Source: Desulfotignum sp. (lineage in GTDB: Bacteria > Desulfobacterota > Desulfobacteria > Desulfobacterales > Desulfobacteraceae). Taken from it: 64,000 nucleotides of DNA. The position numbers were made by a program, and so were the translations under genes. This document shows, piece after piece, positions 10,341 through 30,126 of this stretch. The notes under the pieces are model-generated. The model was not told where the DNA came from and ran no database searches. It was given only the letters and a program-made list of their open reading frames with translations. The stretch is taken from contig JAABSO010000015.1 in assembly GCA_011390335.1 (NCBI GenBank), forward strand, positions 8,972-72,971, given 5' to 3'. The stretch's first letter is position 1; the number at the start of each line of letters is the position of its first letter.

Positions 10341-12074
10341 ATGAAGGTAGCACAATTCAGATTCAGGACGTTGCAGGCAAGGCTGCTGGTGCTTTTGCTG
10401 ATTCCCGTGGTGGTGATCCTTCTGCTGGGAGGGGCGGCAAGTTTCTGGTATGCCAGGGACATCATGCTGGAACAATGGAATGAATCCGCAGCGATAAAAC
10501 TCCAGCGGGCTGCCCATTATATTGAAATGAGACTGCTCAAACCGGTGGACCTGCTCAATGCCTTGTTCCAGGTATCTGACCGGAATGCCGCCATTGTTTC
10601 TCCGGAACAGGTGGTGGATTTTCTGCAGGTCATGGATGGGGTGGTATCTGCAGAGTATGACCCGGCAGGTTCTTTACAATCTCTCAAAGAAATGGGAATG
10701 CCAGGCATGGGGTATATGGACAGGATGAATGTTGACATGCACAAGGGTATGCGGTTTTCCCGGTCCAGAATTGCAAGTGTTTCCGGACCCCAATACCATG
10801 CAGGCGGAGACGGCCGGACTGTGACCATGCGCATCACCCTGTCCGGCCCTTCAGAAGAGAGGCTGGGGCATCTTGACATCCGCATGGAGTTTGATTACCT
10901 GCTCAAAGATATCCTCTCACTGGGCTGGTGGCAGAGCGACATGGCCTGTATTGTAGATGAAAGCGGTACCTATATGGCCCATACCAACATGACCATGACG
11001 GACCGCCGCTCCCTTGGGAACTCAAATGATCCCCTGGAACAGGCAATTTTAAAAAAAATGGATTCCCAGTCATTCGGAACGGTTAGCTCCCAGGGCCATC
11101 CCCCTGACCTGGTGGCGGGTTTCTATAAACTTGACCAGGTGCCCTGGACAATTATCATGTTTGCCGACGGCCGCAAAATTCTGGGTTCCATTGTGACCTA
11201 CAGGAATGTTCTTGCTTTTGGCATATTTGTTCTGGCAGGCCTGGTGCTGGTTTTGATCCGGTTTCACATGTGCCGGATAGTGAACCAGATTCAGCAGCTT
11301 TCCTCCAAGGCACAAGCGGTGGCAGACGGTGATTACGGGTCTCCCATACCTGTGGAAAGCCGCGATGAAATCGGGAACCTGGTGGAACGGTTCAATGCCA
11401 TGGTCAGAGGACTCAAGGAACGCGATCACATCCGTAACAGCTTTGGCCGGTATGTGGACCCGGATTTTGCCAGAACCCTGATGAAGCATCCGGAGGCCGG
11501 CCAGCTGGGGGGCAGCCGGCGGGAGGCGGTGATGCTCATGTCAGACATCCGGGAGTTTACCAGTCTGTCTGAAACCCTGGAGCCTGAGCTGATTGTTACC
11601 ATTTTGAACCGGTATTTTTCCCATATGATCGAGATCATCCGTGAGCACCAGGGTATTATTGTGGATTTTTACGGGGATGCCATCCTGGTGTTTTTTGATC
11701 CCCTGGATGAACCGCTTTTGAAAACCGTCCGGCGGGCGATACAGTGTGCCTTTACCATGCAGGACCGGATGCCGTCGGTGAACCGGGAGTTGAAAGCGCA
11801 GAACCTGCCCGATCTTTCCATGGGCATCGGCATCCATGCCGGCCAGGTGGTGGTGGGAAATATCGGATCCGCCACCCGGGCCAAATACGGGGTGGTGGGA
11901 TCGGCGGTCAACATCACCGGCCGGATCCAGGAACTGGCCCAAAAAGGGCAGATCCTCATCTCAGACGCTGTTCTGGACAAGGTGAAGGACCAGGTAACGG
12001 TGATGACTTCCGTTTCAAAGGACCTGAAGGGGGTGGATCAGACCATGACCCTGCATGTGATCAAACCGGGCTGA
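10341..12074 (+). CDS. Membrane class III nucleotidyl cyclase (TM-periplasmic/Cache-like-TM-HAMP-cyclase), paralog A
   Basis: HAMP DEIGNLVERFNAM; FGRYV; MSDIREFT; IVDFYGDAI; MGIGIHAG.VVVGNIGS; KYGVVGSAVNITGRI. Confidence 0.92.
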   Translation: MKVAQFRFRTLQARLLVLLLIPVVVILLLGGAASFWYARDIMLEQWNESAAIKLQRAAHYIEMRLLKPVDLLNALFQVSDRNAAIVSPEQVVDFLQVMDGVVSAEYDPAGSLQSLKEMGMPGMGYMDRMNVDMHKGMRFSRSRIASVSGPQYHAGGDGRTVTMRITLSGPSEERLGHLDIRMEFDYLLKDILSLGWWQSDMACIVDESGTYMAHTNMTMTDRRSLGNSNDPLEQAILKKMDSQSFGTVSSQGHPPDLVAGFYKLDQVPWTIIMFADGRKILGSIVTYRNVLAFGIFVLAGLVLVLIRFHMCRIVNQIQQLSSKAQAVADGDYGSPIPVESRDEIGNLVERFNAMVRGLKERDHIRNSFGRYVDPDFARTLMKHPEAGQLGGSRREAVMLMSDIREFTSLSETLEPELIVTILNRYFSHMIEIIREHQGIIVDFYGDAILVFFDPLDEPLLKTVRRAIQCAFTMQDRMPSVNRELKAQNLPDLSMGIGIHAGQVVVGNIGSATRAKYGVVGSAVNITGRIQELAQKGQILISDAVLDKVKDQVTVMTSVSKDLKGVDQTMTLHVIKPG

Positions 12075-12139
12075 CCCTGGCACCGGCGGATGAAACCTTG
12101 CCGGCAGCATAGGAGCCCCGAAAGATCAATCCTTATTAG

Positions 12140-12262
12140 CAGAATATTTTACCATATGCCTTGTGTTTTGCAGCAGGCGCAATGATTTTTGTTGTTGTGG
12201 AAGAACTCATTCCAGAGCCTCAGAGAAAATACGAAAATATTGATGTGGTGACAATGGCAACG
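12140..12262 (+). pseudogene. Remnant of a ZIP/ZupT(GufA) metal transporter C-terminal region
   Basis: Translates [41 protein letters not shown]; in-frame TAG immediately upstream, no start codon. Confidence 0.8.
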
Positions 12263-12283
12263 CAGATGTCTCCGCTTCGGGTT

Positions 12284-13636
12284 TCAGTGGTGGTGTGCAG
12301 GTGATTCCTCCTGATCCGATTGTCTGGCCCGTGCAGACCTTTTCAGGAAGATCTGCACGGCGATTGCAATGGCGATCATAGTGACAACGGCAACACCAAT
12401 TACAAAGGGGTCGGAATTCAGCTTGACCCAGACAAAACCTCCAAGGGCGAGTAAATCGAGAAAAATGGCTGTGGCCGGCACCCATGCCCGGGCCTTGACG
12501 GCCTCGCGGAGATAGCGAATGACGCCCCAATGGATGGCAATGTCCATGATCAGGTAAAACACGATACCCAGCGCCGCAATCCGGGAGAGGTCAAAGAATG
12601 CGGTCAGGATCAGGCCGAGAACCACGGTATATACCAGGGTATGCTTCTGGATGCTTCCGGGCATACCAAAATGGCTGTGGGGCACCAGTTTCATTTCGGT
12701 CAGCATGGCCAGCATTCTGGATACGGCAAAAATGCTGGCCAGAATGCCGCCGGCGGTGGCCATTATGGCAATGGCCACCGTGAACCAAACGCCGTAGTCG
12801 CCCAATGCCGGCCGGGCGGCGGCGGCAAGGGAGTAGTCCCGTGTCTCAATGATTTCGGCAAGCGAAAGATTACTCGCAACGGCAAAGCCGACCAGGGTGT
12901 AGATCACAACGCAGGCCGCAATGGACATCATGATGGCACGACCAACATTGCGATGCGGGTCTTTCACTTCCGAGCCACTGTTGGTAATCGTTGTAAAGCC
13001 CTTGAACGCCAGTATTCCGAGGGCGGTCGCACCAAGGAAATTGCCAACGTTACCGGCCTCTCCAGCGCGTGAGAAGTCGATGGAAATGCTATCGGCAATC
13101 CAGACACCCACCAGCCCAAAAATCAGAATGCCCCCGATTTTCAAAATACCGATGAACGAGGCGACCTTTTCGATACGGCGGTTGCCCATCAGATTGATTA
13201 CAAAAGCCGCCAGGATGAGTGCCACCCCGAGAATGGGCACCATACGACCACTCTCATCTCCCCCGAAAAGCTGCATGGTATAGGCGCCGAACGTGCGGGC
13301 AAGAAAGCTTTGGGCGATCACCATCGAAAAATACATCAGTAACGCATTAAAGGCCGTCGGCAACCGGTTTCCGTAGGCCTTGTGCAGATACATGCCGATG
13401 CCACCGGCGGACGGATAGGCATTGGAAATCTTGATGTAGGAATAGGCGCTAAAGGAAACGACCACGGCAGCGGCCAGAAACGCCAACGGGAAGAGAATAC
13501 CGGTCATCTGCGCCATCTGCCCGGTCAGCGCAAAGATGCCGGCGCCTATCATGACCCCGGTTCCCAGCATGACCGTCCCAGCTAGCGTCAAGCTACCTTC
13601 TTGGTACTGCGTCGTTCTGTCATCATCTTTAGCCAT
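12284..13636 (-). CDS. APC family amino-acid permease
   Basis: [33 protein letters not shown]; 12 TM; ends in HHH. Confidence 0.9.
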
Positions 13637-13668
13637 GAAACCTCCGGTTGTTTATAAGTTCAATATAT

Positions 13669-13684: not shown

Positions 13685-13794
13685 ACACCCTGACGGTTTG
13701 GCTGAAAATTAGTGTATACTATTGTAATATTAAGATTTTTACATATCAATGTGTACGATGGAAGAGATTACGTCAAGGTATGCGGGCGGTGATG

Positions 13795-14133: not shown

Positions 14134-14149
14134 TGGCATACCCGTTGCA
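14134..14149 (+). promoter_or_regulatory. Sigma-54 promoter for His-rich protein/porin operon
   Basis: TGGCATACCCGTTGCA = GG-N10-GC. Confidence 0.8.
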
Positions 14150-14232
14150 ATTCATAAAAACAACAGTAATGCAGCGATCACTAAATAATCGTCCTCTATA
14201 CCGGTAAACCATACATGAAAAAGGAGAAAAAA

Positions 14233-14580
14233 ATGAAGATAAAAATAATGTTCATCATCTTGGGAGTGCTTGTAATCGGGTTTTCCATGAAGGCGTATGC
14301 AATGATGGGAGGCGGCCGGACCCAGTCCGGTCAGACGCAGCATATGCATGACAACAGCCAGAGATATCATACGGATCAGGAATATCACAATAACGGCAGG
14401 GAACAGTATCGCCCTGACCATGGCGATCATATGGATGGTGAAGGCAGGTATGGCCAGGATCATTTTATGGACGATGATTCCTTTTACCATGATGACAGCC
14501 ATTCGATCGATCATGGGGGCAATGGATATGACGGCCGCAATGCAGACGACATGCATGACAATGGCCCACAAGGCCATTAG
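14233..14580 (+). CDS. Exported His/Asp/Met-rich low-complexity protein
   Basis: AAGGAG RBS, signal peptide ending MKAYA, mature part MMGGG...HMHD...DHGDHMD...HDDSHSIDH. Confidence 0.75.
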   Translation: MKIKIMFIILGVLVIGFSMKAYAMMGGGRTQSGQTQHMHDNSQRYHTDQEYHNNGREQYRPDHGDHMDGEGRYGQDHFMDDDSFYHDDSHSIDHGGNGYDGRNADDMHDNGPQGH

Positions 14581-14640
14581 TTCATAACCCGGGCTTCAGG
14601 GCCTAAAATGATTTTAAAGGTAAATCTAAGGAGGGAAAAA

Positions 14641-15852
14641 ATGGTTGTTTTCAGAAAAGACGCTGCAATGATGAATAACACATTGAAGGTTGTGATGATT
14701 GCCTTAATGGCGGTGATCTGGGCAGCTGGCATGGCCCAGGCAGGGTACAAATTTAAAATCAATGAAGCGGTTAAAGGAGAGATTGGTTTCTGGACCCAGG
14801 CCTGGTATCAATATGCGGAAGACGCCAGTGACAGCGATGGAGACGGGGTGCTTGATACAGATGTAAATGATTTTATGATACGAAGAGCCTATTTCAGCAT
14901 CAGCGGAGAGGCCACCCCCTATCTGGGATTTTTTACACACATTGCTGCCGACCGCATCGGTCAGGACAATCTGGATGATTCATCACTGGGCCTTGGAAGC
15001 GGTGTCGCATTCAGAGATATTTGGATCACACTGAAACCATCTGATATGCTCAATATTCAGTTGGGGCGGATGTATATTCCGTTTACGCGAAATTATGGCA
15101 CCACCTCGACCAAAGCCCTGTTGACAACAGATCTTGACTGGACCCAGGGCGGCGTCAGAGGCAATATCTTTTACCCCAGCAAGGTTGGCCGGGATGACGG
15201 TGTCACATTTTGGGGCAATCTGATGCAGGGGCTGTTCCAATACCGGTTCATGATTGCCGAAGGGGTGGAGAACATCACCCAGAATCCGGATGATAACCTG
15301 AGGTTTGCCGGAAGGGTCAGTTTCAACCTGTTTGATCCTGAGACAGGCTGGTTCAATCAGGGCACCTATCTGGGAAAGAAACAGGTTCTTGCATTCGGTC
15401 TGGGCGCAGATACCCAGGAGCTTGAATTTGGTGCCCGAACAGATGATTATTTTGCCTGGACAGCGGATATTCATTATGACCAGCCGTTGAGCAACGGGGG
15501 TGCCCTGACTGCCGAAGCTGCGTACATCAACATTGAAAAAGGGGTGAACCCTATTAAATACACCCAGTTTGCATCAGGGGATGACGGGTCAATTGTTTCC
15601 CTGAAAGCAGGGTATCTTTTCCCCGGCCGGATCGGGATAGGACAGGTACAGCCTTTTGCCCACTATGAGCTTATCAATGTGGATGAAACAAATAAAGACG
15701 ATACACAGGTATATGGTCTGGGATTGAATTACTTTTTCAAGGGACATGCCAATAAATTGAGCATCGATCTTTCATCAGTTGATCAGGAAACAGCAACAAC
15801 ATCTGCACAGGATCATTTAATTTTCACAATCCAGCTGGCAGCCGGGTTCTAA
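14641..15852 (+). CDS. Outer-membrane porin (OprO/P-like; resembles Geobacter ExtI family)
   Basis: Signal peptide (..GMAQA), DFMIRRAY, GRMYIPFTRNYGTTSTKALLTTDLDW, C-terminal Phe; AAGGAGG RBS. Confidence 0.75.
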   Translation: MVVFRKDAAMMNNTLKVVMIALMAVIWAAGMAQAGYKFKINEAVKGEIGFWTQAWYQYAEDASDSDGDGVLDTDVNDFMIRRAYFSISGEATPYLGFFTHIAADRIGQDNLDDSSLGLGSGVAFRDIWITLKPSDMLNIQLGRMYIPFTRNYGTTSTKALLTTDLDWTQGGVRGNIFYPSKVGRDDGVTFWGNLMQGLFQYRFMIAEGVENITQNPDDNLRFAGRVSFNLFDPETGWFNQGTYLGKKQVLAFGLGADTQELEFGARTDDYFAWTADIHYDQPLSNGGALTAEAAYINIEKGVNPIKYTQFASGDDGSIVSLKAGYLFPGRIGIGQVQPFAHYELINVDETNKDDTQVYGLGLNYFFKGHANKLSIDLSSVDQETATTSAQDHLIFTIQLAAGF

Positions 15853-15859
15853 AGTCCAT

Positions 15860-15904
15860 TTTAACAGACAGCCGCCCGCGTTAAGCGGGCGGCTGTCTGT
15901 TAAA
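15860..15904. terminator. Strong hairpin after porin gene
   Basis: tttaacagacagccgcccgc-gttaa-gcgggcggctgtctgttaaa, 20-bp perfect stem. Confidence 0.8.
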
Positions 15905-15966: not shown

Positions 15967-16128
15967 ATGTCGCAAACCACAAAAAACAATATCGGAAAAA
16001 AAATCTTCAGGTCTGCTGCTATTGTAATGGTTCTGATCACACTGGCTGTTCTGGTGACATCCTGTGCCGCGCCGCGGTACGGAAGGGGCCATCATCATTA
16101 TATGAATTACAATGGTGTTCAACCATGA
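15967..16128 (+). CDS. Small predicted lipoprotein with HHH motif (53 aa)
   Basis: AAGGGGA RBS; MSQTTKNNIGKKIFRSAAIVMVLITLAVLVTS-CAAPRYGRGHHHYMNYNGVQP; lipobox VTSC; below the ORF-track cutoff. Confidence 0.6.
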   Translation: MSQTTKNNIGKKIFRSAAIVMVLITLAVLVTSCAAPRYGRGHHHYMNYNGVQP

Positions 16129-17510
16129 CGGGATGATAAAATTTGGGCAAGATCCAGATGGTATTTTTTAATTTTGTTGTTTAACGTTGTTCGGGTGATG
16201 TGCAGTAATTTTGCCGCCTCGGTCTTGTTCCCCCCGGTCTGCTTCAGGGTCTCTGTCAGGGCCATGGTTTCAATGTCATCAAGGGATCTGCCGCCGAGCG
16301 CAGGCAGGGGATTTGCAGGATCTTCATCCGGTCTGTAGTTTCCCATCACAGTCGCCGGCAGGTCTTTTTCCGAGATATATTGCCCCATGGACAAAATAGC
16401 CGCCCTTTCAACGGCATTTTCAAGTTCTCTGACATTGCCGGGCCATGGATGTTTTATCATGGCATCCATGGCCATGGGCGTGAATCCTTTATACTGTTTT
16501 CTGTTTTTTTGTGCGTACAGAGTTAAAAAGTCCTGGGCAAGCAGGGGGATATCCTCTTTTCTGTCTTTTAATGAAGGGATTTTGATATTGATAACGTTCA
16601 GGCGGTAAAACAGATCTTCTCTGAACCGGCCGTCCTTCACTTCCTGTTCCAGGTTTTTGTTTGTGGCGACAATAATTCTGACATCGATTTGGATCGGTTT
16701 GTCATTTCCTATCCTTTGAATCTCTCTTTCCTGTATGGTGCGCAGCAGTTTGACCTGCATGGACAAAGGGATTTCTCCTATCTCATCTAAAAAAATGGTA
16801 CCTTTGTCTGCATGGAGAAAAAGACCGTCCCGTCTTTTGTCCGCCCCGGTGAAAGCCCCTTTTTCATGTCCGAATAGTTCCGATTCCAGAAGCGTTTCAT
16901 TCAACGCCGCACAGTTAATGGATATCAGCTTGTTTTTGTTTCTGGCGCTGTGATCATGAATGGCTTTGGCAAACAGTTCTTTTCCGGTACCGCTTTCACC
17001 GGTAATCAGGATGGTGGCATCTGTGGGCGCTGCAATTTTTGCCGTTTCCATCACTTTTTTCAAGGCAGGACTGGAACCTGTAATGCGGGAAAAACCGGTA
17101 TTTAATGATATTTTTTTTTTCAGGTCTGCATTTTCACGGGTCAGCTGCAGATGACTCATTGCCCTGTCAATGGTGATTTTAAGGTCATCAAAATTCAAGG
17201 GTTTGGTAAGATAATCATAGGCACCAAGCTTCATCGCCTCCACTGCTTTATTCACTGAAGAATACGCTGTCATGATGATAATGGGTATGGCAGGGTTGAA
17301 CTCTTTTATTTTCTGCAACGCTTCCATCCCCCCGATATTTGCCATTCTCACATCCATAAGCACCAGATCATAAGGTGTTTTTTTTACCACGCTGATGGCA
17401 TCTTTGCCGTCAGTTACACTGTGTATTGAATGACCTATGCTTTTTAAAACGGTTTCCAGCATGGACAGATGCGCTGTGTCATCATCAACGATCAAAATTT
17501 TACCTGTCAT
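16119..17510 (-). CDS. Sigma-54-dependent response regulator, ZraR/NtrC family
   Basis: REC (VDDD, MDVRM), GESGTGKE, ESELFGHEKGAFTGA, WPGNVRELEN, Fis HTH. Confidence 0.93.
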   Translation of the reverse strand: MTGKILIVDDDTAHLSMLETVLKSIGHSIHSVTDGKDAISVVKKTPYDLVLMDVRMANIGGMEALQKIKEFNPAIPIIIMTAYSSVNKAVEAMKLGAYDYLTKPLNFDDLKITIDRAMSHLQLTRENADLKKKISLNTGFSRITGSSPALKKVMETAKIAAPTDATILITGESGTGKELFAKAIHDHSARNKNKLISINCAALNETLLESELFGHEKGAFTGADKRRDGLFLHADKGTIFLDEIGEIPLSMQVKLLRTIQEREIQRIGNDKPIQIDVRIIVATNKNLEQEVKDGRFREDLFYRLNVINIKIPSLKDRKEDIPLLAQDFLTLYAQKNRKQYKGFTPMAMDAMIKHPWPGNVRELENAVERAAILSMGQYISEKDLPATVMGNYRPDEDPANPLPALGGRSLDDIETMALTETLKQTGGNKTEAAKLLHITRTTLNNKIKKYHLDLAQILSSRHG

Positions 17511-19195
17511 GGTAATATCCTCTGTTGTTTATTAAGCGGTATTGAAACGAAAAATGTGGTGCCCTTCCCCTTGAAACTTTCAAGCCAGATGGTGCCGTTA
17601 TGGCCTTCGATTATTTTGTGGACAATGGCCAGTCCCAGTCCGGTCCCCTTTTTTTTGGTTGTAAAATAGGGATTGAATACAGCGGCCTGGTCATCGGGTA
17701 AAATCCCTTCCCCGGTATCTGAGACAGCAAAAAGAACGGCATTCTCTTTCACCCGGACATCCACTGTCAGGTCTCCGCCATGTTTCATGGCCTGGATGGC
17801 ATTAATATAAAGATTCAGCAGAACCTGGCTGAAACGGTCCGGGTCAAGATTGAGTTTGGGAAGCGGGGCATCGATTTTTTCCTTCACCCGTATGCCGGCG
17901 CTTTCTGCCTCATGCCGGATAATGCGCAATGAGTTTTTGATAAATTGATCCAATTGTGTGGGGTGTAATTTTAAGTCAGCCGGCCGTGCAAATTCAAGCA
18001 GTTCAGATATCACCCGGTCCACTCTGTCAATCTCTTGCACCATTAACCGGGCCGCTTTTTTATTTTCACTGGTATCTTCAAACAGGCTGCCGAAAAAACC
18101 GGCATACCCCTTGATGGAGCTTAAGGGGTTTCTGACTTCATGGGCAATACCCGAGGCCAGTGTTCCCAGCGCGGCCAGGCTTTCTTTTCTTCTGATTTTC
18201 AGCTCCAGGGCCCGTATCTGGCTCAAATCTTTTAAAATAAAGAGAAATCCTATGAAATCACCGGCCTGGTCGAAAATATTTGTAACCATCACGGAAATGG
18301 GGGTTGCGCCTGTTTTTTCCGCGTCGACAACGATCTCTTTTTCCAGGCCTTTTCCGTTGGCATCGGCAATCTTATGCAGATGCCAGATATCTTCGGGAAG
18401 AACGTCACCGGCTGTTTTGTCAGTTATCCCCAAAATATTGATTCCCAGAAGAGAACAGGCGGTATCATTCATATACCGGATGTGCCGGCTCTTATCCACA
18501 ATGATGATTCCCATGGGAAGGCTGGCAATGGTTTCAGCGGCAAAAGCCCTTGTGTCCTGCAGCAGCCGGTGGGAACGGATGACCTTGCGGGACCAGAACA
18601 AAGAAATAATTCCGGCCAGTCCCACGAGAAAAACAATGGTGATCATCAGAATGTTGTGTTGCAGGTCTTCTCTAACAGCCTGTTCAAACGGGTGTACATC
18701 CATTCCAATGAACATCACGGGTCTGTTTTCAGCAACTTTCGGAAATGTAAACGCAAGTGGTTTGTAAACCTCGAAATACCTTGTGTTGTTTTCTTTTTCA
18801 ACGATCCGCCACCCGGGATTGCCGGGGTGTGTAACACGGTTTTCAAGTGCTGTGTCATCGCGCTGTGTGCCGATCATTTTCCGGTCATTGTGGGCCAGTA
18901 TCTTTCCAGATGCGTCAACCAGAAACATATATAAAATGCCGGATTGAGATGCGGTTTTCTCCAGTACCCTCTGCAGGGAAAAATGATTGCCCGACACCCC
19001 GGTTCCGGCATCGGCTTCAAAAGACTTGATCCATACCACCCCTTTTTCCATTAAATGGTTGCCCACATGTTGTTTTTCCCGATTGTACATTATTACGGTC
19101 TGAAAAAGGATAATCACCATGAGCACAAAACTGATGCCGATGGTGATCCATGGGGAGGCAGAAACCACCAATCGGTTTGTTTTACTAAAATTCAT
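17507..19195 (-). CDS. Sensor histidine kinase, ZraS-like (2 TM, PAS)
   Basis: AHEVRNPLSSIKG, QVLLNLYINAIQAM, FNPYFTTK..GTGLGL; ATGA overlap with regulator. Confidence 0.92.
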   Translation of the reverse strand: MNFSKTNRLVVSASPWITIGISFVLMVIILFQTVIMYNREKQHVGNHLMEKGVVWIKSFEADAGTGVSGNHFSLQRVLEKTASQSGILYMFLVDASGKILAHNDRKMIGTQRDDTALENRVTHPGNPGWRIVEKENNTRYFEVYKPLAFTFPKVAENRPVMFIGMDVHPFEQAVREDLQHNILMITIVFLVGLAGIISLFWSRKVIRSHRLLQDTRAFAAETIASLPMGIIIVDKSRHIRYMNDTACSLLGINILGITDKTAGDVLPEDIWHLHKIADANGKGLEKEIVVDAEKTGATPISVMVTNIFDQAGDFIGFLFILKDLSQIRALELKIRRKESLAALGTLASGIAHEVRNPLSSIKGYAGFFGSLFEDTSENKKAARLMVQEIDRVDRVISELLEFARPADLKLHPTQLDQFIKNSLRIIRHEAESAGIRVKEKIDAPLPKLNLDPDRFSQVLLNLYINAIQAMKHGGDLTVDVRVKENAVLFAVSDTGEGILPDDQAAVFNPYFTTKKKGTGLGLAIVHKIIEGHNGTIWLESFKGKGTTFFVSIPLNKQQRILP

Positions 19196-19455: not shown

Positions 19456-19471
19456 TGGCACGGTCATTGCA
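19456..19471 (+). promoter_or_regulatory. Sigma-54 promoter for the SHOCT-cyclase-TolC-CusBA operon
   Basis: TGGCACGGTCATTGCA, near-perfect -24/-12 consensus, divergent from the ZraSR-like genes. Confidence 0.88.
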
Positions 19472-19540: not shown

Positions 19541-19807
19541 ATGTGGGGCTGCAATACCATTGCTTCTGGCATGGGACACTGGATTTTCGGCGGCGGCATC
19601 ATCGGATTTGGTATTACAGTATTAATACTTGCCCTGATTGTCCTTGTTCTCATCCAATTATATAAATCCGGCAAAAAATCCACACCATGCGCAGATACAA
19701 TGGATTCTCTGAAAATTTTAAAAACACGGTTTGCCAAAGGGGAAATAACTGAACAGGAATACCTGAAAATGCGGGACATTCTCTGCATTAATGATACATC
19801 CAGATGA
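19541..19807 (+). CDS. SHOCT-domain membrane protein
   Basis: One TM then SLKILKTRFAKGEITEQEYLKMR; AGGAG RBS. Confidence 0.88.
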   Translation: MWGCNTIASGMGHWIFGGGIIGFGITVLILALIVLVLIQLYKSGKKSTPCADTMDSLKILKTRFAKGEITEQEYLKMRDILCINDTSR

Positions 19808-19819
19808 CGGCGGCTTGTT

Positions 19820-22899: not shown

Positions 22900-24452
22900 A
22901 AATAAAGATTTTTACCCTGACAATACCGGTGCTTTTCTTTGCTTCTGTCTGCTTTGCAGATTATGGCGCCATGAAAAAAGAACTGAAAGACTATACCCCC
23001 CAAGACAGTTTTGCCATTAGACAATCACCTGATATCGCCGTGCAGAAAACACCTTTCCATACGGCTGTTCCTTTTCCTGCCGGATCACAGATTCCTGACA
23101 GATCACAGATACACAATCTGAAGCAGGGGTATGAAAAACAGATATATGGGCCCAATGGCGATGCCGCAGCAATGGGGGTGGATGAAAAAATCCTTGCACA
23201 GGTATCTCAAACAGGCGATGACCCAAAAGCATTTGCAGCGCTCCTTGCGCAGAAGATCGATCTGAAAGAGATAAAAGCCATTGCCGTTCTGCGAAATACA
23301 GATATCAAGGCGGCTCAAAAAAAGGTTCTGGCAGAGATCCAGTCCTTTGACCAGGTCACGCACTTGGATGACAGCCTGCAGCAGTATGCGGCATTCACCG
23401 CTGCCCTCAACAACCGGGTCGGGCCTTTGAAAACAAAGGATTCCATCAGGGCAGGATATCCATTTCCCGGCCTTGTTGCCCTCAAGGGCCGCGTCATCCA
23501 AAGCCAGGTGGACATGCTGGTGGAGCAGATGAAAATTGTCGGCAAACAGGTGCGCCAGGATGTTGAAAATGCCTATTGGGAGCTTGTGTATACCACCCGG
23601 TCCATCTGGATCATCCATGAGACCACAGCAGCGTTCGACCGCCTTCTGGATGTGGCCGCATCCCTGTATAAAAGCGGCAGAACCAGTTACCAGGATGTGA
23701 TCAAGGTAACCATAAAAATAGAAGAACTTAACGAAGAGCTGATCACCCTGGAAAATAAAGCAGACAATGGTAAAATCCGGCTGCTTGAACTGATGAACCT
23801 TCCGGCAGATACACGTATGGGTCCGGTGAAAACAGCGTCTCTGCCCAAAACAATTCCCGTGCCTGAAAAATTGTTTACCATTGCCAGGGACCATCGCCAG
23901 GAACTGGCTGCCATCCGGTTTCAGATCAGCAAACTGCAGTCCATGGTGGAGATGGCTGAATCCATGAAGCAATCTTCGTTTACCCTGGGATTGTCCTATT
24001 TTGAAGCCGACCATGTCAATACAGCCGGCACAGATGCCCCGCAGCAGGCATTTGCCGAAAAAACCATGGCATCCATGAAAAACAACCAGCCGGTGAAACC
24101 CTGGTATGGCGTGGACAGCCCCTGGTTACAGCAGACAAGGCAGACACTGGCAGGTCTTGAACATACCCTGGTTGCAAGAGAGAATGCCACAGACCGCATG
24201 GTGTACAATGCCTGGTTCAAAACAGACAAAAACCTGCGGGAGCTGGACCTGTACAAAAACAGGATACTGCCTCTGACAAAGTCTGCCATGGATGTGTCCA
24301 CCAGGGAATATGAGACCGGGTCCATTCCCTTTTCCCAGGCCATCGGGTCCTATACAGACTGGCTGAACGTGAAACTGACCATTGCGCAAAAGACAAAAGA
24401 CCTGGGTATCTCTTTTGCCGCCCTTGAAACGGTTGTAGGTACAAACTTATAA
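22896..24452 (+). CDS. TolC-family outer membrane factor 2 with N-terminal extension
   Basis: Signal peptide, YPFPGLVALKG, AYWELVY, YKSGRTSYQDV, YETGSIPF. Confidence 0.8.
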   Translation: MKIKIFTLTIPVLFFASVCFADYGAMKKELKDYTPQDSFAIRQSPDIAVQKTPFHTAVPFPAGSQIPDRSQIHNLKQGYEKQIYGPNGDAAAMGVDEKILAQVSQTGDDPKAFAALLAQKIDLKEIKAIAVLRNTDIKAAQKKVLAEIQSFDQVTHLDDSLQQYAAFTAALNNRVGPLKTKDSIRAGYPFPGLVALKGRVIQSQVDMLVEQMKIVGKQVRQDVENAYWELVYTTRSIWIIHETTAAFDRLLDVAASLYKSGRTSYQDVIKVTIKIEELNEELITLENKADNGKIRLLELMNLPADTRMGPVKTASLPKTIPVPEKLFTIARDHRQELAAIRFQISKLQSMVEMAESMKQSSFTLGLSYFEADHVNTAGTDAPQQAFAEKTMASMKNNQPVKPWYGVDSPWLQQTRQTLAGLEHTLVARENATDRMVYNAWFKTDKNLRELDLYKNRILPLTKSAMDVSTREYETGSIPFSQAIGSYTDWLNVKLTIAQKTKDLGISFAALETVVGTNL

Positions 24453-24476
24453 ATACACAACATTACAAGCCCGGCT

Positions 24477-24514
24477 GGACAACGCAAGCATATAGCAGGA
24501 CAACGCAAGCGTAT
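24477..24514. repeat. Direct repeat with 21-bp period in the TolC-CusB intergenic gap
   Basis: ggacaacgcaagcatata / ggacaacgcaagcgtata. Confidence 0.75.
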
Positions 24515-24555
24515 AAAAGTTGCTTAATGGAAAATACAGGGAGAAACGATTTATC

Positions 24556-26112
24556 ATGAATATCAAATCAACCCTGCTGGTTATTATTTTGACGGCACTG
24601 ATAACAGGCACAGCGGTATTTTTTATAATAACCACCATTGGACCAACATCCTCTGAGAGTAGTAAAGCCCCGTCTGAACAAAATGGCGATGCTGCATCAA
24701 AAGAGCGGAAGATCATCTACTGGAAGGCCCCCATGGACCCCACCGAGATCTATGACGAGCCGGGTAAAAGCAAGATGGGCATGGACCTTGTGCCGGTATA
24801 TGAAGATGAGGTTTCCGAAGATGAGACGTCCAAAGACACAACAGACCGGAAAATCTTATACTGGAAAGCGCCCATGGATCCCACAGAAATCTATGATGAA
24901 CCGGGCAAAAGCAAGATGGGCATGGATCTTGTGCCGGTGTATGAAGATGAGGTAAAGGGCGGGGTGGATATTAAAATAAATCCGGTGGTGGAACAGAACA
25001 TGGGCCTTAAAATCAAACCTGTTGAACAGGGCCCTTTGAACCATATCATCAGAACCTATGGCCATGTGACCTTTGATGAAACCAGGACCGGTATTGTCAG
25101 CCCCAAAACCGCAGGGTGGGTTGAAACCCTTTATGCCGACTATACCGGGTTTGTTATTGAAAAGGGCGATCCCCTTTTTGCCATGTATTCTCCGTCCCTG
25201 CTGGCATCCCAGGAAGAATATCTGTCTGCCTATAAAAATTTTCAGGCACGCAAAACCCCCTTGAACAAGGACCTGCTGGAATCAGCCAAAAAAAGACTGG
25301 CATACTATGACATTGCAGACCAGGACATCGCTTTTCTGGAACAGACCGGGCAGGTCCGTAAAACCCTGGTCATCCGGTCCCGGTTTAAAGGGGTGGTGAC
25401 CCATAAAAACGTGATTGAAGGGGCATATGTCAAAGCCGGGGAGAGCCTGTTCACCATTGCGGATCTGTCCACGGTGTGGGTGGAAGCCCATATCTTTGAA
25501 TATGAGCAAAACCTGGTATATGAAGGGCAGACCGTTGAAATGACCCTGTCCTACAACCCGGACAAGGTGTACACGGGAAAAATTGCCTATATTTTTCCCT
25601 ATCTGCAGCCCAAAACCCGGGATGTGGTCATCAGGGTCATCTTTGACAATACAGCGGGTGACCTGAAGCCGGACATGTTTGCAAATATAAAAATCAATAC
25701 CAGCGGGGATGCAGCCGGGCTGATTATTCCCTCCGAGGCGGTGATCCACTCCGGGGAAAAACAGCTGGTGTTTGTGGCCAATGGCAATGGCCGGTTCACC
25801 CCCCGAAAGATCACCACCGGTGTCCATCTGGAAGAGGGAAGGGTCCAGGTGCTGACCGGCCTGGGTGCAGGAGAGGATGTCGTGGTGTCCGGCCAGTTCC
25901 TGCTGGATTCTGAATCCCGGCTCAAAGAGGCGATCCAGAAGATGATCGCATCCAAATCCGGCACTGCAAAAGAAAAAAAGGAACCATCCCAAAATGAAGG
26001 GGACAGTTTTTTTGAAGAGATGGAAGATGGCCCAGAATCCGGGGATGATTTTTTCCAGGACATGGAAGATGACACAGAGTCCGGGGATGACTTTTTCCAG
26101 GATATGGAATAA
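24556..26112 (+). CDS. cusB: CusB-like RND periplasmic adaptor with two heavy-metal-binding repeats and acidic tail
   Basis: YWKAPMDPTEIYDEPGKSKMGMDLVPVYEDE twice; YSPSLLASQEEYL; IADLSTVWVEA; LKPDMFA; SGQFLLDSESRL. Confidence 0.88.
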   Translation: MNIKSTLLVIILTALITGTAVFFIITTIGPTSSESSKAPSEQNGDAASKERKIIYWKAPMDPTEIYDEPGKSKMGMDLVPVYEDEVSEDETSKDTTDRKILYWKAPMDPTEIYDEPGKSKMGMDLVPVYEDEVKGGVDIKINPVVEQNMGLKIKPVEQGPLNHIIRTYGHVTFDETRTGIVSPKTAGWVETLYADYTGFVIEKGDPLFAMYSPSLLASQEEYLSAYKNFQARKTPLNKDLLESAKKRLAYYDIADQDIAFLEQTGQVRKTLVIRSRFKGVVTHKNVIEGAYVKAGESLFTIADLSTVWVEAHIFEYEQNLVYEGQTVEMTLSYNPDKVYTGKIAYIFPYLQPKTRDVVIRVIFDNTAGDLKPDMFANIKINTSGDAAGLIIPSEAVIHSGEKQLVFVANGNGRFTPRKITTGVHLEEGRVQVLTGLGAGEDVVVSGQFLLDSESRLKEAIQKMIASKSGTAKEKKEPSQNEGDSFFEEMEDGPESGDDFFQDMEDDTESGDDFFQDME

Positions 26113-26130
26113 CAGACAGGGGATGCTGCG

Positions 26131-29100
26131 ATGATAGACAAGATAATTGAATGGTCTGTACACAACAAATTCATGGTCGTCCTGGCAACTTTTTTTGTCA
26201 TTGCCGGGGGTATTCTGGCCATGGTCAACACGCCTCTGGATGCCATCCCTGATCTGTCCGACGTGCAGGTCATCATCTATACGGAATATCCGGGCCAGGC
26301 CCCCCAGGTGGTGGAGGACCAGATCACCTATCCCTTGACAACCGCCATGCTCAGTGTGCCTTTTGCCAAGGTGGTCAGGGGGTATTCTTTTTTCGGGTAC
26401 TCCTTTGTCTACCTGATATTTGAAGACGGCACCGATATCTACTGGGCCAGATCCCGGGTCATGGAGTACTTAAATTTTGTGTCCGGCCGCCTGCCTGCCG
26501 GGGTGACCCCCAGTCTCGGGCCGGATGCCACAGGAGTGGGCTGGGTGTATCAATACATCCTCCAGGATACCACGGGTGAAACCGACCTTGCCGAACTCAG
26601 GTCGCTCCAGGACTGGTTTGTGCGCTATGAGCTCACCGCGGTTCCCGGTGTCTCGGAAGTGGCCAGCATCGGCGGATTTGTCAAGCAGTACCAGGTGGAA
26701 GTGGACCCCAACAAACTGGCATCGTATGGTATCTCCATCCGGAAAATCAAAAATGCCATCCAGCAGTCCAATGCAGATGTGGGGGGCAAGCTCATTGAGA
26801 TGGGAGAAACCGAATTCATGGTCCGGGGCCTGGGGTATATCTCCTCTGTGGAAGACATTGCGCAGATTGTTGTGTCCTTTGATGACAAAGGCACCCCGAT
26901 TCTGCTGGGGGATATTGCCAATATCCAGATCGGTCCGGAATTGCGCCGGGGCATTCTGGAATGGAACGGGGAAGGGGAGACCGTGGGCGGCATCGTGGTC
27001 ATGCGGTACGGGGAAAACGCCCTGGAGGTGATCAAGCGGGTAAAAGAAAAACTTAGGGATCTGGAAAAAGGGCTGCCCGAGGGGGTGGAGATCCTCACGG
27101 GGTATGACCGGTCCGCTTTGATTGAACGGGCTGTGGATACCCTTAAAACCAAACTCACCGAGGAGATGATCGTGGTGGCCCTGGTGTGCATCATTTTTCT
27201 GTTGCATTTCAGGTCGGCATTTGTGGCCATCTTTACCCTGCCTGTGGGTATCTTGATGTCATTTATGATCATGTATCCGTTCAATGTCAATGCCAACATC
27301 ATGAGCCTGGGGGGTATTGCCATTGCCATCGGCGTGATGGTGGATGCCTCCATCGTGATGGTGGAAAACGCCCACAAGCACCTGGAGCGGGACCGGGGTA
27401 AAAAAAGCCATACCCAGATCATTATTGATGCCTCAAAGGAGGTGGGACCGGCTCTGTTTTTCAGTCTGTTGATCATCACGGTGTCGTTTTTGCCGGTATT
27501 CTCCCTCATGGAGCAGTCCGGCCGGCTTTTCAAACCCTTGGCCTACACCAAGACCACAGCCATGGCAGCCTCTTCTGTTCTGGCCATCACCATCATCCCG
27601 GTGCTCATGATATTTTTTGTCAGGGAACACCCCATTGATCCGGCCCTGCCAAAAAAAGCAAAGGCAAAAATCTGGGTTCCGGCCCTGGCAGGACCGCCCC
27701 TGGCGGTTGTCTGTGCCGGCCTTGCAGGCCTGCCCCTGCCGGATATCAGCCTGGTACTGGCCCTGGGACTTTCCGTGTTTTTTGGCATCTGCCTGTTTCC
27801 CCAGAAAATAATTGCCGAAAAAAACAATCCCCTGAACCGGTTTCTGATCTGGATCTATCTGCCTGCGATCAAATGGGTGTTGCAATGGCGTAAAATAACC
27901 ATACTGGTTGCAGTGGCCGCCATTGCAATTACCTGGTACCCCATGACCCGGGTGGGCAGCGAATTCATGCCGCCTTTGAATGAAGGGGATCTTTTGTACA
28001 TGCCTACCACGTTGCCCGGTATTTCCATCACCAAGGCCAAAGAGCTTCTCCAGCAGACAGACAAGATCATTCAGAGGTTTCCGGAAGTCAAAACCACCCT
28101 GGGAAAGGTCGGCCGGGCGGAAACATCAACCGATCCGGCACCCTTGTCCATGATCGAAACCGTGATCATGCTCAGGCCGGAAATTACCTATGAAATGGTT
28201 GATACCCCGCGGTTTTTTTCTGCATGGCCGGCCTGGCTGAAAAAACCGCTGACCTGGATCTGGCCGGAACAGGTCAAGGGAGAAATTTTACATGAATGGC
28301 GCAAAAAGCAGATCGACCGGTTCTACGCCGGCTGGCCGGGCTGGCTTGCTGCCCCGTTTGAATGGATACTGCCTGAAGAGCGCTATATCACCATGCAGGA
28401 ACTGATCGATGATCTGGATGCAGCGGTGAAGTTCCCGGGGGTGACCAATGCCTGGACCATGCCCATCAAGACCCGCATCGACATGCTGTCCACCGGCATA
28501 AAAACCCCGGTGGGAATAAAGGTCCTGGGGCCGGACCTGGAAACCCTGGCCGATCTCGGAGAACAGATCGAAAGCCTGCTCAGGGACAAAAAAGGGACCT
28601 TGTCCGTGTTTTCTGAGCGCGTGACCGGCGGCAATTACCTGGATTTTACCATTAACAGACAGGAAATCGCCAGGTACGGGTTAACGGTGCAGGATGTCCA
28701 GGACATTATCAAGACCGCCATCGGCGGGATGAACGTGACCTATACCGTGGAGGGCCTGGAACGGTATCCTGTCAATCTGCGGTATAACCGGGAGTTCCGG
28801 GACAACCTCCACATGATACGCCGGGTGTTTGTGCCCACCCCGTCCGGCGCCAAGGTGCCGTTGACCCAGCTGGCTGATATTGCCGTAAAAAAAGGCCCGG
28901 CCGGCATAAAGAGTGAAAACTCCAAAAGAAGTGCCTGGGTGTTCGTGGATATCAAAGGAATGGATCTGGGCACCTATGTCAAACAGGCCCGGCAGCTGGT
29001 GGATGAAAACATCGATCTGCCGTCAGGGTATTCCCTTGTCTGGTCCGGCCAGTATGAATATATGGAAAAGGCGAAAAAAACCTTGCAGCTCATTATTCCA

Positions 29101-29613
29101 GCCACCCTGCTGGTGATATTCATCCTGCTGTATATCCATTTTGGCAACCTTACAGAGGTGGTCATTGTGATGGCCAGTCTGCCTTTTTCTCTGATCGGGG
29201 GGTTCTGGCTGATCTATCTTCTGGGATACAACATGTCTGTGGCCGTGGGGGTGGGGTTTATCGCCCTGGCAGGACTTGCCACGGAAACCGGCATTGTCAT
29301 GCTGGTGTACCTGGATGAGGTGTATAAACGTAAAAAAAAGGAAAACCGCATGCGCACGGCATCCGACCTGTACGGGGCAGTTGTTGAAGGGGCGGTGGAC
29401 AGGGTCCGGCCCAAAATTATGACCGTTGCCACCACCCTGATCGGTCTTTTGCCGGTGATGTACGGCAGCGGGGCCGGCTCCCAGATCATGAAGCGCATTG
29501 CAGCACCCATGGTGGGGGGACTTGTGTCTTCCGCCATCATGACTTTGATTATCATTCCGGTAATCTACATTCTGTGGAAAACCCGGGAAATTAATAAAAA
29601 CAATAATATATAA
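26131..29613 (+). CDS. cusA: CusA/CzcA-family heavy-metal efflux RND permease (Cu/Ag type)
   Basis: DAIPDLSDVQVI, LGPDATGVGWV, SEFMPPLNEGDLLYMP, APLSMIET, NAWTMPIKTRIDML, RVRPKIMT. Confidence 0.93.
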   Translation: MIDKIIEWSVHNKFMVVLATFFVIAGGILAMVNTPLDAIPDLSDVQVIIYTEYPGQAPQVVEDQITYPLTTAMLSVPFAKVVRGYSFFGYSFVYLIFEDGTDIYWARSRVMEYLNFVSGRLPAGVTPSLGPDATGVGWVYQYILQDTTGETDLAELRSLQDWFVRYELTAVPGVSEVASIGGFVKQYQVEVDPNKLASYGISIRKIKNAIQQSNADVGGKLIEMGETEFMVRGLGYISSVEDIAQIVVSFDDKGTPILLGDIANIQIGPELRRGILEWNGEGETVGGIVVMRYGENALEVIKRVKEKLRDLEKGLPEGVEILTGYDRSALIERAVDTLKTKLTEEMIVVALVCIIFLLHFRSAFVAIFTLPVGILMSFMIMYPFNVNANIMSLGGIAIAIGVMVDASIVMVENAHKHLERDRGKKSHTQIIIDASKEVGPALFFSLLIITVSFLPVFSLMEQSGRLFKPLAYTKTTAMAASSVLAITIIPVLMIFFVREHPIDPALPKKAKAKIWVPALAGPPLAVVCAGLAGLPLPDISLVLALGLSVFFGICLFPQKIIAEKNNPLNRFLIWIYLPAIKWVLQWRKITILVAVAAIAITWYPMTRVGSEFMPPLNEGDLLYMPTTLPGISITKAKELLQQTDKIIQRFPEVKTTLGKVGRAETSTDPAPLSMIETVIMLRPEITYEMVDTPRFFSAWPAWLKKPLTWIWPEQVKGEILHEWRKKQIDRFYAGWPGWLAAPFEWILPEERYITMQELIDDLDAAVKFPGVTNAWTMPIKTRIDMLSTGIKTPVGIKVLGPDLETLADLGEQIESLLRDKKGTLSVFSERVTGGNYLDFTINRQEIARYGLTVQDVQDIIKTAIGGMNVTYTVEGLERYPVNLRYNREFRDNLHMIRRVFVPTPSGAKVPLTQLADIAVKKGPAGIKSENSKRSAWVFVDIKGMDLGTYVKQARQLVDENIDLPSGYSLVWSGQYEYMEKAKKTLQLIIPATLLVIFILLYIHFGNLTEVVIVMASLPFSLIGGFWLIYLLGYNMSVAVGVGFIALAGLATETGIVMLVYLDEVYKRKKKENRMRTASDLYGAVVEGAVDRVRPKIMTVATTLIGLLPVMYGSGAGSQIMKRIAAPMVGGLVSSAIMTLIIIPVIYILWKTREINKNNNI

Positions 29614-29628
29614 GAAAGGATGTTACCC

Positions 29629-30126
29629 ATGAAAAAAATATCATTAACAATTATTTGTCTTGTTACCCTGGCAGCTGCCCTGGTTTTCTTTTCAAGCACT
29701 GCTTCTGCAATGGATGACGGCCATGATATGGATTCATCTGACAAAATCGGAGAGCTGTTCCATGAATCCATGCAAAACGGGTATATGCTGTCCTATTATC
29801 TGATGGACCTTCGGGATCAGGGTGATGACAAGGCTGCTGACCATTCCTCAGGGGATCATGCTTCCCATGGAGAAAAACAGATGGACAAGCCCCATCACAT
29901 CATGGTGTATATCATGGACCAGGACCATGAACCTGTGACAGATGCAAAGGTGGGGTTTCTGATTAAAAACGGTGCCGGTGAAACCCAGAAAATCATGGCC
30001 ATGTACATGAGTAAAGGGTTTGGCATCACTGCTGACATGAAGGCAAAAGGGGTGTATGAGATCGCGGTCAAGGCGGTGGTTGACGACGTTACCCTCATGG
30101 ACCGGTTCAACCATGAAATGAAGTAG
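29629..30126 (+). CDS. Exported His/Met-rich protein, putative periplasmic metal chaperone
   Basis: Signal peptide (..TASA), MDDGHDMD, DHSSGDHASH, PHHIMVY, KIMAMYM. Confidence 0.75.
   Translation: MKKISLTIICLVTLAAALVFFSSTASAMDDGHDMDSSDKIGELFHESMQNGYMLSYYLMDLRDQGDDKAADHSSGDHASHGEKQMDKPHHIMVYIMDQDHEPVTDAKVGFLIKNGAGETQKIMAMYMSKGFGITADMKAKGVYEIAVKAVVDDVTLMDRFNHEMK

What the first reader, a model, noticed from the sequence alone, without database searches (positions are those of the whole stretch)
10341..30126. Candidate metal-responsive cyclic-nucleotide signalling system wired into a sigma-54 Cu/Ag efflux regulon
Seen: a membrane class III cyclase is the second gene of the operon SHOCT-cyclase-TolC-TolC-CusB-CusA-His/Met protein. 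It is translationally coupled to TolC (ATGA overlap) and sits behind a consensus sigma-54 promoter divergent from a ZraSR-like pair. A close paralog lies ~9.5 kb upstream beside a ZIP remnant. Established: Cus systems export Cu(I)/Ag(I), and ZraSR activates sigma-54 promoters under metal/envelope stress; characterised cus operons that I know of contain no nucleotidyl cyclase. Inference: metal stress both induces efflux and produces a second messenger. This is my best candidate for an undescribed system.
Basis: partly seen in the sequence, partly recalled or inferred. Interest (0 to 1): 0.82.

Follow-up and report, generated by a model that had tools for sequence, protein, structure and literature searches.

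The report
Copper-linked receptor cyclase inside efflux operon
A membrane receptor gene inside a copper-export gene cluster belongs to a family found again and again beside copper-export genes in related bacteria; it likely senses copper or silver outside the cell and is predicted to make a cyclic-nucleotide messenger (probably cGMP), while many relatives carry a phosphatase on the same sensor instead.

Summary
The gene order, both ATGA overlaps, the sigma-54 motif, the divergent ZraSR-like pair and the 55%-identical paralog are all real. The cyclase is a TM-dCache-TM-HAMP-class III receptor with an intact catalytic set. Its base-selecting pair is an invariant Asp/Gly, closest to the Glu/Gly of the guanylyl cyclase Cya2.

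The copper link held in two genome samples. In the larger, 24 of 80 family genes lie within 10 kb of a CusA, against 2 of 133 control genes, across 12 families and several layouts.

The link follows the sensor, not the cyclase: 60 of those 80 carry a SpoIIE phosphatase in place of the cyclase and are linked as often. The sensor has a near-invariant His-x3-Met on helix 1 (115 of 123; 0 of 46 controls) and a Met/His-rich loop.

Against a dedicated system: most members are unlinked, no effector travels with them, sigma-54 control is not general, and four same-genus genomes deleted this gene from the operon.

Verdict: likely an accessory Cu(I)/Ag(I) receptor with swappable outputs. Ligand, product and target are untested.

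The parts
10341..12074 (+). Paralogous receptor cyclase (cycA), same dCache-HAMP-class III build, Asp/Gly pair and His-x3-Met; frame open from 10314
   Evidence: family found in 18 of 21 same-genus genomes; in most such loci this copy sits directly convergent to the zraR-like gene
12140..12298 (+).
   Evidence: translation; no Pfam hit at E 0.05; likeness recalled only
12284..13636 (-). APC-family amino acid permease, lying between the two modules; not shown to be part of the system
14134..14149 (+). Second strict sigma-54 motif, ahead of the His-rich protein and porin
14215..14580 (+). His/Asp/Met-rich protein with hydrophobic N-terminus, likely periplasmic metal binder
   Evidence: sequence; no Pfam family over cut-off
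14608..15852 (+). Porin, ExtI-like (148 bits, cut-off 150); followed by a 20-bp terminator hairpin at 15860-15904
16119..17510 (-). ZraR-like sigma-54 enhancer-binding response regulator
17507..19195 (-). ZraS-like membrane histidine kinase (PAS-HisKA-HATPase)
19456..19471 (+). Sigma-54 -24/-12 motif, 70 nt before SHOCT
19541..19807 (+). SHOCT-domain small membrane protein, first gene of the predicted operon
19820..21556 (+). Receptor cyclase cycB: TM1-dCache-TM2-HAMP-class III nucleotidyl cyclase, 578 aa
19928..20668 (+). Periplasmic double-Cache sensor (aa 37-283), missed by Pfam; shared with SpoIIE-output relatives
19997..20011 (+). His60-x3-Met64 on helix 1, candidate Cu(I)/Ag(I) ligands
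20129..20227 (+). Variable Met/His-rich loop (aa 104-136; pLDDT under 50 at 112-129) in the distal Cache subdomain
20981..21502 (+). Catalytic domain: D396, D440, N518, R522 intact, K557 just beyond; base-selecting pair D436 (21125-21127) and G511 (21350-21352)
21553..22899 (+). Outer-membrane efflux protein 1 (TolC/CusC family), ATGA-coupled to the cyclase
22896..24452 (+). Outer-membrane efflux protein 2, ATGA-coupled to OEP1
24520..26112 (+). CusB-type adaptor with two heavy-metal-binding domains and an acidic tail
26131..29613 (+). CusA-type Cu(I)/Ag(I) RND pump; M624, M674 and M785 align with Met of solved CusA; D405, E1052, K1095 present
29620..30126 (+). His/Met-rich protein, faint YtkA-like hit (E 0.026), likely periplasmic copper chaperone; follows cusA in related loci

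Best explanation
The gene at 19820-21556 encodes a membrane receptor (double-Cache sensor, HAMP, class III cyclase domain with all catalytic residues) of a family that recurs beside copper-export genes, and it likely senses periplasmic Cu(I)/Ag(I) and is predicted to make a cyclic nucleotide, most likely cGMP, as an accessory signal beside the Cus pump. Shown: architecture, catalytic residues, the Asp/Gly base-selecting pair, gene order and coupling, linkage to copper genes, the swap of cyclase for SpoIIE phosphatase on the same sensor, and conservation of His60/Met64. Inferred: (1) His60/Met64 of two protomers bind the metal at the helix-1 dimer interface, as in CusS, CopS and CzcS, helped by the Met/His loop. 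(2) Binding moves TM2 and HAMP and switches the catalytic dimer. (3) Here the ZraR-like activator and sigma-54 co-transcribe receptor and pump, a feed-forward step in which metal raises both efflux and the capacity to signal. (4) The messenger acts on cNMP-binding proteins encoded elsewhere. My odds for the product, given activity: cGMP about 0.5, cAMP 0.2, mixed 0.15, pyrimidine or other 0.15. The receptor is not needed for efflux.
For: Linkage, phylum sample: 5 of 43 family genes within 10 kb of a TIGR00914 hit vs 1 of 124 other cyclase domains in the same genomes; 8 of 43 once the long CusA-like pumps seen in the loci are counted. Linkage, new order-level loci: 24 of 80 vs 2 of 133 other SpoIIE genes, both of which lie in these same loci; 12 families; 12 of 80 within 1.5 kb. 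29 of 80 have CusA/B, a CopA-like ATPase or a multicopper oxidase. Layouts differ (after cusA, divergent from it, convergent on it, or in the slot between a zraSR-like pair and the OEP genes), so this is not one inherited block. His60 116 of 124 and Met64 115 of 124 are the only near-invariant metal-type residues of the sensor. His-x3-Met is in 115 of 123 members vs 0 of 46 other dCache or cyclase sensors. The loop is 13.6% Met+His vs 5.3% elsewhere. Catalytic D396, D440, N518, R522 and K557 are kept in 116-119 of the 117-119 sequences covering them; D436 118 of 118; G511 119 of 119. The best solved match by sequence is Cya2 (2W01 and its fusion 6FHT), where D436 aligns with Glu and G511 with Gly. 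Among top library hits, cyclases without this sensor read Glu in 24 and Lys in 4. Precedent for helix-1 metal sites: PMC7763554 and PMC5540610 (passages).
Against: Most members are not beside a core copper gene (51 of 80 and 33 of 43; many contigs are short). Kin are not independent, so the Fisher p values overstate. No cNMP effector or phosphodiesterase stood out among recurring neighbours. A sigma-54 motif lies upstream in only 15 of 119 loci vs 41 of 615 random windows. Four same-genus genomes deleted cycB in frame. Some cus-linked members have almost no Met/His in the loop (L055, L155, L160), and among cyclases loop content does not differ with linkage (medians 5.5 vs 4.5, p 0.44). Whether His60/Met64 face a dimer interface was not shown. 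The Tyr that raises GC activity in Cya2 (PMC4215837) is Ser here (S521 in 99 of 118), and in that paper an Glu/Gly mutant of Ma1120 still preferred ATP. By fold, CyaB and CyaC (adenylyl) tie with Cya2 (Z 27.0, 26.5, 26.7).
Confidence: 0.55

Rival explanations
1. The receptor senses some other cue of the same stress (envelope damage, oxygen or redox state, an organic ligand in the Cache pocket) and sits with copper genes because they share a ZraSR-type stress regulon or mobile metal-tolerance islands.
For: 51 of 80 and 33 of 43 members lack a core copper neighbour. The solved dCache matches bind small organic ligands where a ligand is named. Insertion and deletion turnover is visible in this region. 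ZraSR as an envelope-stress system is recalled, not checked.
Against: The neighbours are specifically copper-type (CusA, CopA-like ATPase, multicopper oxidase, NosL, YtkA). Other phosphatases and cyclases of the same genomes are not linked. The sensor keeps His/Met and lacks the amino-acid motif YxxxxRxWY.
Confidence: 0.25
2. It is a metal receptor, but for Zn(II), Ni(II) or Co(II), bound by His60 with the acidic residue at 63 in the manner of CzcS.
For: Position 63 is Asp in 107 of 124 sensors (Glu here). CzcS binds Zn through His55/Asp60 on helix 1 (PMC5540610). The regulator is ZraSR-like.
Against: Met64 is as conserved as His60, and Met ligation favours Cu(I)/Ag(I) (established chemistry, recalled). 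The linked pump is CusA-type, not ZneA/CzcA-type.
Confidence: 0.12
3. The Asp at the base-selecting site marks an enzyme that makes no purine cNMP: either a catalytically weak scaffold or a maker of a non-canonical nucleotide.
For: Neither Lys (adenylyl) nor Glu (guanylyl) is at 436. PMC4215837 names Lys for adenylyl and Glu for guanylyl cyclases at this position in the parts read. No cognate effector is linked.
Against: All metal-binding and transition-state residues are kept across the family (all 16 new cyclases read Asp/Gly). Cytidylate and uridylate cyclases rank lower by fold (Z 18-20.4 vs 26.5-27).
Confidence: 0.08

Closest known systems
Cya2 guanylyl cyclase of Synechocystis (PDB 2W01)
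   Same: Best sequence match among solved structures; about 40% identity and 1.6-1.8 A rmsd over the catalytic domain; same Gly at the second base-selecting site.
   Different: Asp instead of Glu at the first site; Ser instead of the GC-enhancing Tyr; a dCache sensor; copper-gene context.
CusS/CusR, CopS/CopR and CzcS/CzcR metal-sensing two-component systems
   Same: Membrane receptors tied to metal RND efflux; metal bound by His at the sensor's dimer interface (PMC7763554, PMC5540610; passages).
   Different: Those are histidine kinases that switch on the pump genes. This receptor has a double-Cache sensor and a cyclase or SpoIIE output, and is itself a passenger of the operon.
CorSR and the curA operon of Myxococcus xanthus
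   Same: A sigma-54 two-component system that drives a copper operon with multicopper oxidase, CopA and a PF13442 cytochrome c (PMC3707914, passages); the same gene types recur beside this family.
   Different: No receptor cyclase appears in the passages read. corSR lies inside curA, whereas here the pair is divergent. Homology of CorS to this kinase was not tested.
dCache_1 receptors (PctA, TlpC; dCache_1AA)
   Same: Same double-Cache fold (Z 13.7-14.1 over about 200 residues; profile hits E 2e-4 to 0.03).
   Different: Below Pfam's dCache_1 threshold; amino-acid motif absent, with a Met/His-rich loop in that region; family-specific His-x3-Met on helix 1.
E. coli cusCFBA
   Same: CusA with aligned Met triad, CusB, outer-membrane factor, small His/Met protein.
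   Different: Two OEP genes, SHOCT and a receptor cyclase in the cluster; predicted sigma-54 control; no CusF hit.

Membership tests
Class III nucleotidyl cyclase | Guanylate_cyc domain and fold | tested here: met
   PF00211 92.9 bits; Z 26.5-27 to CyaB, Cya2, CyaC
Class III nucleotidyl cyclase | Two metal-binding Asp plus Asn/Arg transition-state pair | tested here: met
   D396, D440, N518, R522
Class III nucleotidyl cyclase | Measured cyclase activity | not testable with these tools
   needs an enzyme assay
Canonical adenylyl cyclase | Lys and Asp/Thr at the base-selecting sites | tested here: not met
   D436 in 118 of 118, G511 in 119 of 119
Cya2-type guanylyl cyclase | Glu/Gly base-selecting pair | tested here: inconclusive
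   Gly met; Asp in place of Glu
Cya2-type guanylyl cyclase | Tyr three residues after the catalytic Asn | tested here: not met
   S521; role from PMC4215837
dCache_1 sensor | Double-Cache fold between two TM helices | tested here: met
dCache_1 sensor | Pfam PF02743 gathering score | tested here: not met
   no hit for the window's sensor; 17-18 bits vs cut-off 45 in three relatives
dCache_1AA amino-acid sensor | YxxxxRxWY plus Y and D motif | tested here: not met
   motif from PMC8915833; absent from the family consensus
CusA-type Cu(I)/Ag(I) RND pump | TIGR00914 over cut-off; nearer CusA than ZneA; Met triad | tested here: met
   which Met form the triad is recalled
ZraSR | NCBIfam ZraS and ZraR cut-offs | tested here: not met
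   408 of 479 and 543 of 760 bits, though the best hits
ZraSR | Adjacent zraP | tested here: not met
   the genome's one PF13801 hit is on contig C13; genome 88% complete
CusS/CzcS-like interface metal sensor (works like) | Conserved His (with Met/Asp) on the N-terminal sensor helix | tested here: met
   H60, D/E63, M64
CusS/CzcS-like interface metal sensor (works like) | These residues meet at the dimer interface and bind metal | tested here: inconclusive
   not resolved by any search; needs a structure and a binding assay
Sigma-54 operon | -24/-12 motif and a linked enhancer-binding protein | tested here: met
Sigma-54 operon | One transcript from SHOCT to cusA, induced by metal | tested here: inconclusive
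   RNA runs hold only short contigs, mostly of relatives

The most novel reading that the evidence does not exclude
A Desulfobacterota family of double-Cache receptors has become a Cu(I)/Ag(I) sensor through a His-x3-Met site on helix 1, and plugs this one sensor into two interchangeable outputs: a SpoIIE phosphatase, or an Asp/Gly cyclase making cGMP or a non-canonical cyclic nucleotide. It would be a metal-sensing dCache domain and a copper-triggered second-messenger branch running beside the kinase that induces efflux.
Probability: 0.38. Interest if true: 0.82.

Novelty: new variant of a known kind. Interest (0 to 1): 0.66.

Why it matters
The bacterial periplasmic copper sensors tied to efflux in the papers read here (CusS, CopS, CorS) are histidine kinases that switch on pump genes. 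A receptor that turns periplasmic copper into a cyclic nucleotide or a phosphatase signal would let metal stress reach targets beyond the efflux regulon, in sulfate reducers that live in metal-sulfide settings and matter for corrosion. It would add a metal ligand class and a two-residue signature to the dCache family. It also offers an invariant Asp/Gly cyclase for the open question of how bacterial class III enzymes choose their base. All of it can be tested with one soluble domain and one enzyme assay.

Tried and rejected
Structure and binding: the single-sequence fold of the sensor failed (pLDDT 35). The sensor-dimer prediction with zinc gave no verdict (score 0.01) and is used neither for nor against.

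RNA: four runs held at most 0.13 of the sampled words. The three laid gave short contigs, mostly of relatives; none listed bridges cyclase and OEP1, which shows nothing.

A copper-induced phosphatase, Dde_3047 of D. alaskensis (PMC8836040, passages and supplement rows), looked like a lead. Its neighbours are a DUF1987 protein and a diguanylate cyclase, so I set it aside; its sequence was not compared.

Effector search: clustering neighbours of 123 loci gave cus, OEP, kinase/regulator, His/Met, DUF6488 and CopA genes, and no cNMP-binding protein or phosphodiesterase that I could recognise among the clusters in four or more loci (read from first residues, not scanned against Pfam). The window's two cNMP-domain genes (53253-54271) lie 23 kb away and were not linked to this locus.

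General sigma-54 control: weak, 15 of 119 vs 41 of 615. The pattern had a wrong spacer and its motif output was ignored.

The metagenome scan with the sensor alignment could not run. Earlier scan findings: none. The ZIP remnant is unconfirmed. The idea that cycB was recently inserted into the operon was dropped once deletion scars were found.

Literature searches that found no description of this system: 0 papers; 1; 1; 7; 1; 10 listed, unrelated by title; 5 listed. The library lacks most subscription papers, and supplements of papers not opened may bear on novelty.
Full report
OBSERVATION. The window is contig C6 of genome G000. The nearest named records of the cyclase, at 96% identity, are Desulfotignum. 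The cyclase stop overlaps the OEP1 start (ATGA, 21553-21556), and OEP1 overlaps OEP2 the same way; the other gaps are 6 to about 100 nt. The terminator scan lists only 5-7-pair stems inside 19541-30126, against a 20-pair hairpin after the porin gene. A strict sigma-54 motif lies at 19456 and another at 14134; the genome has 52. The pump is CusA-type: 1179 bits to solved CusA against 519 to ZneA, with Met aligned at the three sites (which residues form the triad is recalled). The divergent pair is nearest ZraS/ZraR but under both cut-offs, and the only ZraP-like gene is on another contig. The ZIP remnant has no Pfam support.

THE PROTEIN. The model from a 99-row alignment (mean pLDDT 85.5) shows TM1 running into a long helix 1, two Cache subdomains, TM2, HAMP and a class III domain. 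Pfam misses the sensor. Fold comparison places it with dCache domains (Z 13.7-14.1, about 200 residues), as do the profile search and the Atlas, queried with homologue P0001. In 122 aligned sequences the catalytic residues are nearly invariant, and the base-selecting positions are Asp436 (118 of 118 covering) and Gly511 (119 of 119). The best solved match by sequence is the guanylyl cyclase Cya2, where these align with Glu and Gly. PMC4215837 (parts 1-2 of 4 read) gives Lys/Asp for adenylyl and Glu plus a varied residue for guanylyl cyclases. It also shows that an Glu/Gly mutant still preferred ATP until a Tyr was added, and that position is Ser here. Among the top 150 library representatives, those with this sensor were 34 cyclases (Asp read in 31, 3 not parsed), 41 phosphatases and 20 fragments. 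Cyclases with no sensor match read Glu in 24, Asp in 14 (several are fragments), Lys in 4, with 13 unparsed. cGMP is therefore the best guess, not a finding.

LINKAGE. The N-terminal 380 residues matched 35 of 401 phylum genomes, 43 genes outside G000; the sensor profile gave nearly the same set, 36 of 401, with a sharp score gap. Five of the 43 lie within 10 kb of a listed TIGR00914 hit, against 1 of 124 other cyclase domains (150 of 259 rows were listed). Counting the long CusA-like pumps seen in the loci gives 8 of 43, and 10 of 43 have a core copper gene. For replication, the sensor profile matched 113 of 401 order-level genomes, 127 genes. I fetched 80: 9 were already examined, 18 were skipped as fragments or near contig ends, and 20 could not be fetched. 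24 of 80 lie within 10 kb of a CusA over the cut-off, against 2 of 133 other SpoIIE genes (150 of 583 rows listed), and both control hits are in these same loci. The linked genes span 12 families, and 12 of 80 are within 1.5 kb. 29 of 80 have CusA/B, a CopA-like ATPase or a multicopper oxidase. The layouts vary: directly after cusA (L147, L164, L165), divergent from the OEP-cusB-cusA block (L142, L152, L166), convergent on it (L121, L193), or downstream of a divergent zraSR-like pair and ahead of OEP genes, as in the window (L123, L129, L131, L150). Kin are not independent, so I rely on the repeated rearrangement more than on the p values.

THE LINK FOLLOWS THE SENSOR. Eight of the 43 phylum genes have a SpoIIE domain where the cyclase would be and form their own branch in a quick tree (the careful search did not finish). 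In the order sample 60 of 80 are phosphatases, 16 are cyclases (all Asp/Gly) and 4 are cut short. CusA linkage is 17 of 60 and 5 of 16. The four loci that copy the window's layout with OEP genes carry the phosphatase form. Across 124 sensors the only near-invariant His, Met or Cys are His60 (116) and Met64 (115), one turn apart on helix 1, with Asp at 63 in 107. His-x3-Met occurs in the first 40 sensor residues of 115 of 123 members and 66 of 83 library representatives. It occurs in 0 of 46 control dCache_1 or related cyclase sensors (51 examined, 5 dropped for no TM found). A variable loop in the distal subdomain is 13.6% Met+His against 5.3% elsewhere. It is richer in linked than unlinked phosphatases (medians 7.5 vs 4, n 28 and 21, p 0.011) but not in cyclases (5.5 vs 4.5, n 14 and 22, p 0.44), and some linked members lack it. 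The amino-acid motif of PMC8915833 (passages) is absent. CusS and CopS bind Cu/Ag through His at the sensor's dimer interface (PMC7763554, passages), and CzcS binds Zn through His55/Asp60 on helix 1 (PMC5540610, passages). That His60/Met64 do the same is inference.

HOW FIXED IS THE WIRING. Not very. In five co-directional loci from other genera of the family (L003, L005, L006, L007, L009) a sigma-54 motif lies between cyclase and OEP1; two of them have another about 207 nt before the cyclase. Family-wide the motif is only weakly enriched (15 of 119 vs 41 of 615). Within the genus, 18 of 21 genomes carry the family, but cycB itself (95-96%) is found in 4 besides G000. Of seven same-genus loci where the OEP1 start could be read without cycB, four (L084, L085, L089, L092) begin OEP1 with about 15 cycB-like codons joined in frame to the OEP1 signal peptide; three do not. 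I read this as a deletion scar: the internal cyclase was present in their ancestor and lost, while cycA was kept, usually beside zraR. The cus genes persist without it. No effector was recognised among recurring neighbours. G000 has 8 cNMP-binding domains; its one CRP-like protein lacks the phosphate-binding Arg, while four larger proteins keep it (motif recalled).

MECHANISM AND RIVALS. Most likely (0.55), periplasmic Cu(I)/Ag(I) binds His60/Met64 across the receptor dimer and HAMP relays this to the catalytic dimer. Here the ZraR-like activator would raise receptor and pump together, and the messenger would act on unlinked targets. Rivals: another stress cue with shared regulon or island (0.25), another metal (0.12), no purine cNMP (0.08). 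CorSR of M. xanthus (PMC3707914, passages) is as good a precedent for the sigma-54 copper regulon as ZraSR.

NOVELTY. Every part is of a known kind. The combination was not found in seven literature searches aimed at it (listings only, except the papers named) or in earlier scan notes. Two Atlas clusters, 176 SpoIIE and 150 cyclase members, carry the sensor with no family name over it. I rate it a new variant of a known kind, interest 0.66.

Noticed in passing
L084:9746-11167, L085:14386-15762, L089:14652-16025, L092:3858-5234: OEP1 begins with about 15 cycB-like codons fused in frame to its signal peptide: a natural deletion scar of the cyclase gene. In L084 the zraSR-like pair and SHOCT are also reduced to short remnants.
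   Followed up: yes
window 14134-15904: A second sigma-54 motif precedes a His/Asp-rich protein and an ExtI-like porin ending in a 20-bp hairpin; likely a second target of the ZraR-like regulator.
   Followed up: partly
L080:13036-17500, L082:12600-17100: In two same-genus genomes a partial zraR-like gene remains beside cycA while a full copy lies beside cycB, suggesting duplication of the regulator block.
   Followed up: partly
L060, L066, L068: A long (1263-1293 aa) CusA-like pump with altered motifs, then NosL, then the cyclase; two loci are preceded by FtrD-like and MacB-type ABC genes. These pumps were not listed at the TIGR00914 threshold used.
   Followed up: partly
L062, L129, L131, L142, L143, L144, L150, L152, L163, L191: DUF6488 recurs beside the sensor and copper genes; in L062, L129, L131, L143 and L150 it sits just upstream of the sensor, where SHOCT sits in the window; a candidate copper-stress protein.
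   Followed up: partly
G000:C65:30941-31471: Another cyclase in the same genome with the Glu/Gly pair of Cya2, a candidate guanylyl cyclase, about 4.4 kb from a cNMP-binding domain gene.
   Followed up: no
window 53253-54271: Two tandem stand-alone cNMP-binding-domain genes at the end of an Mrp-type Na+/H+ antiporter cluster (45215-53224), 35% identical to each other.
   Followed up: no
L155 and L172: A second, unrelated SpoIIE gene lies in the same cus-sensor locus; these are the only two control hits.
   Followed up: no
window 24520-26112: CusB has a duplicated heavy-metal-binding domain (DNA repeat near 24702-24953) and a thrice-repeated acidic tail motif.
   Followed up: no
L097: One family member sits beside an ArsP-type permease, thioredoxin and DsbD-like gene rather than copper genes.
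   Followed up: no
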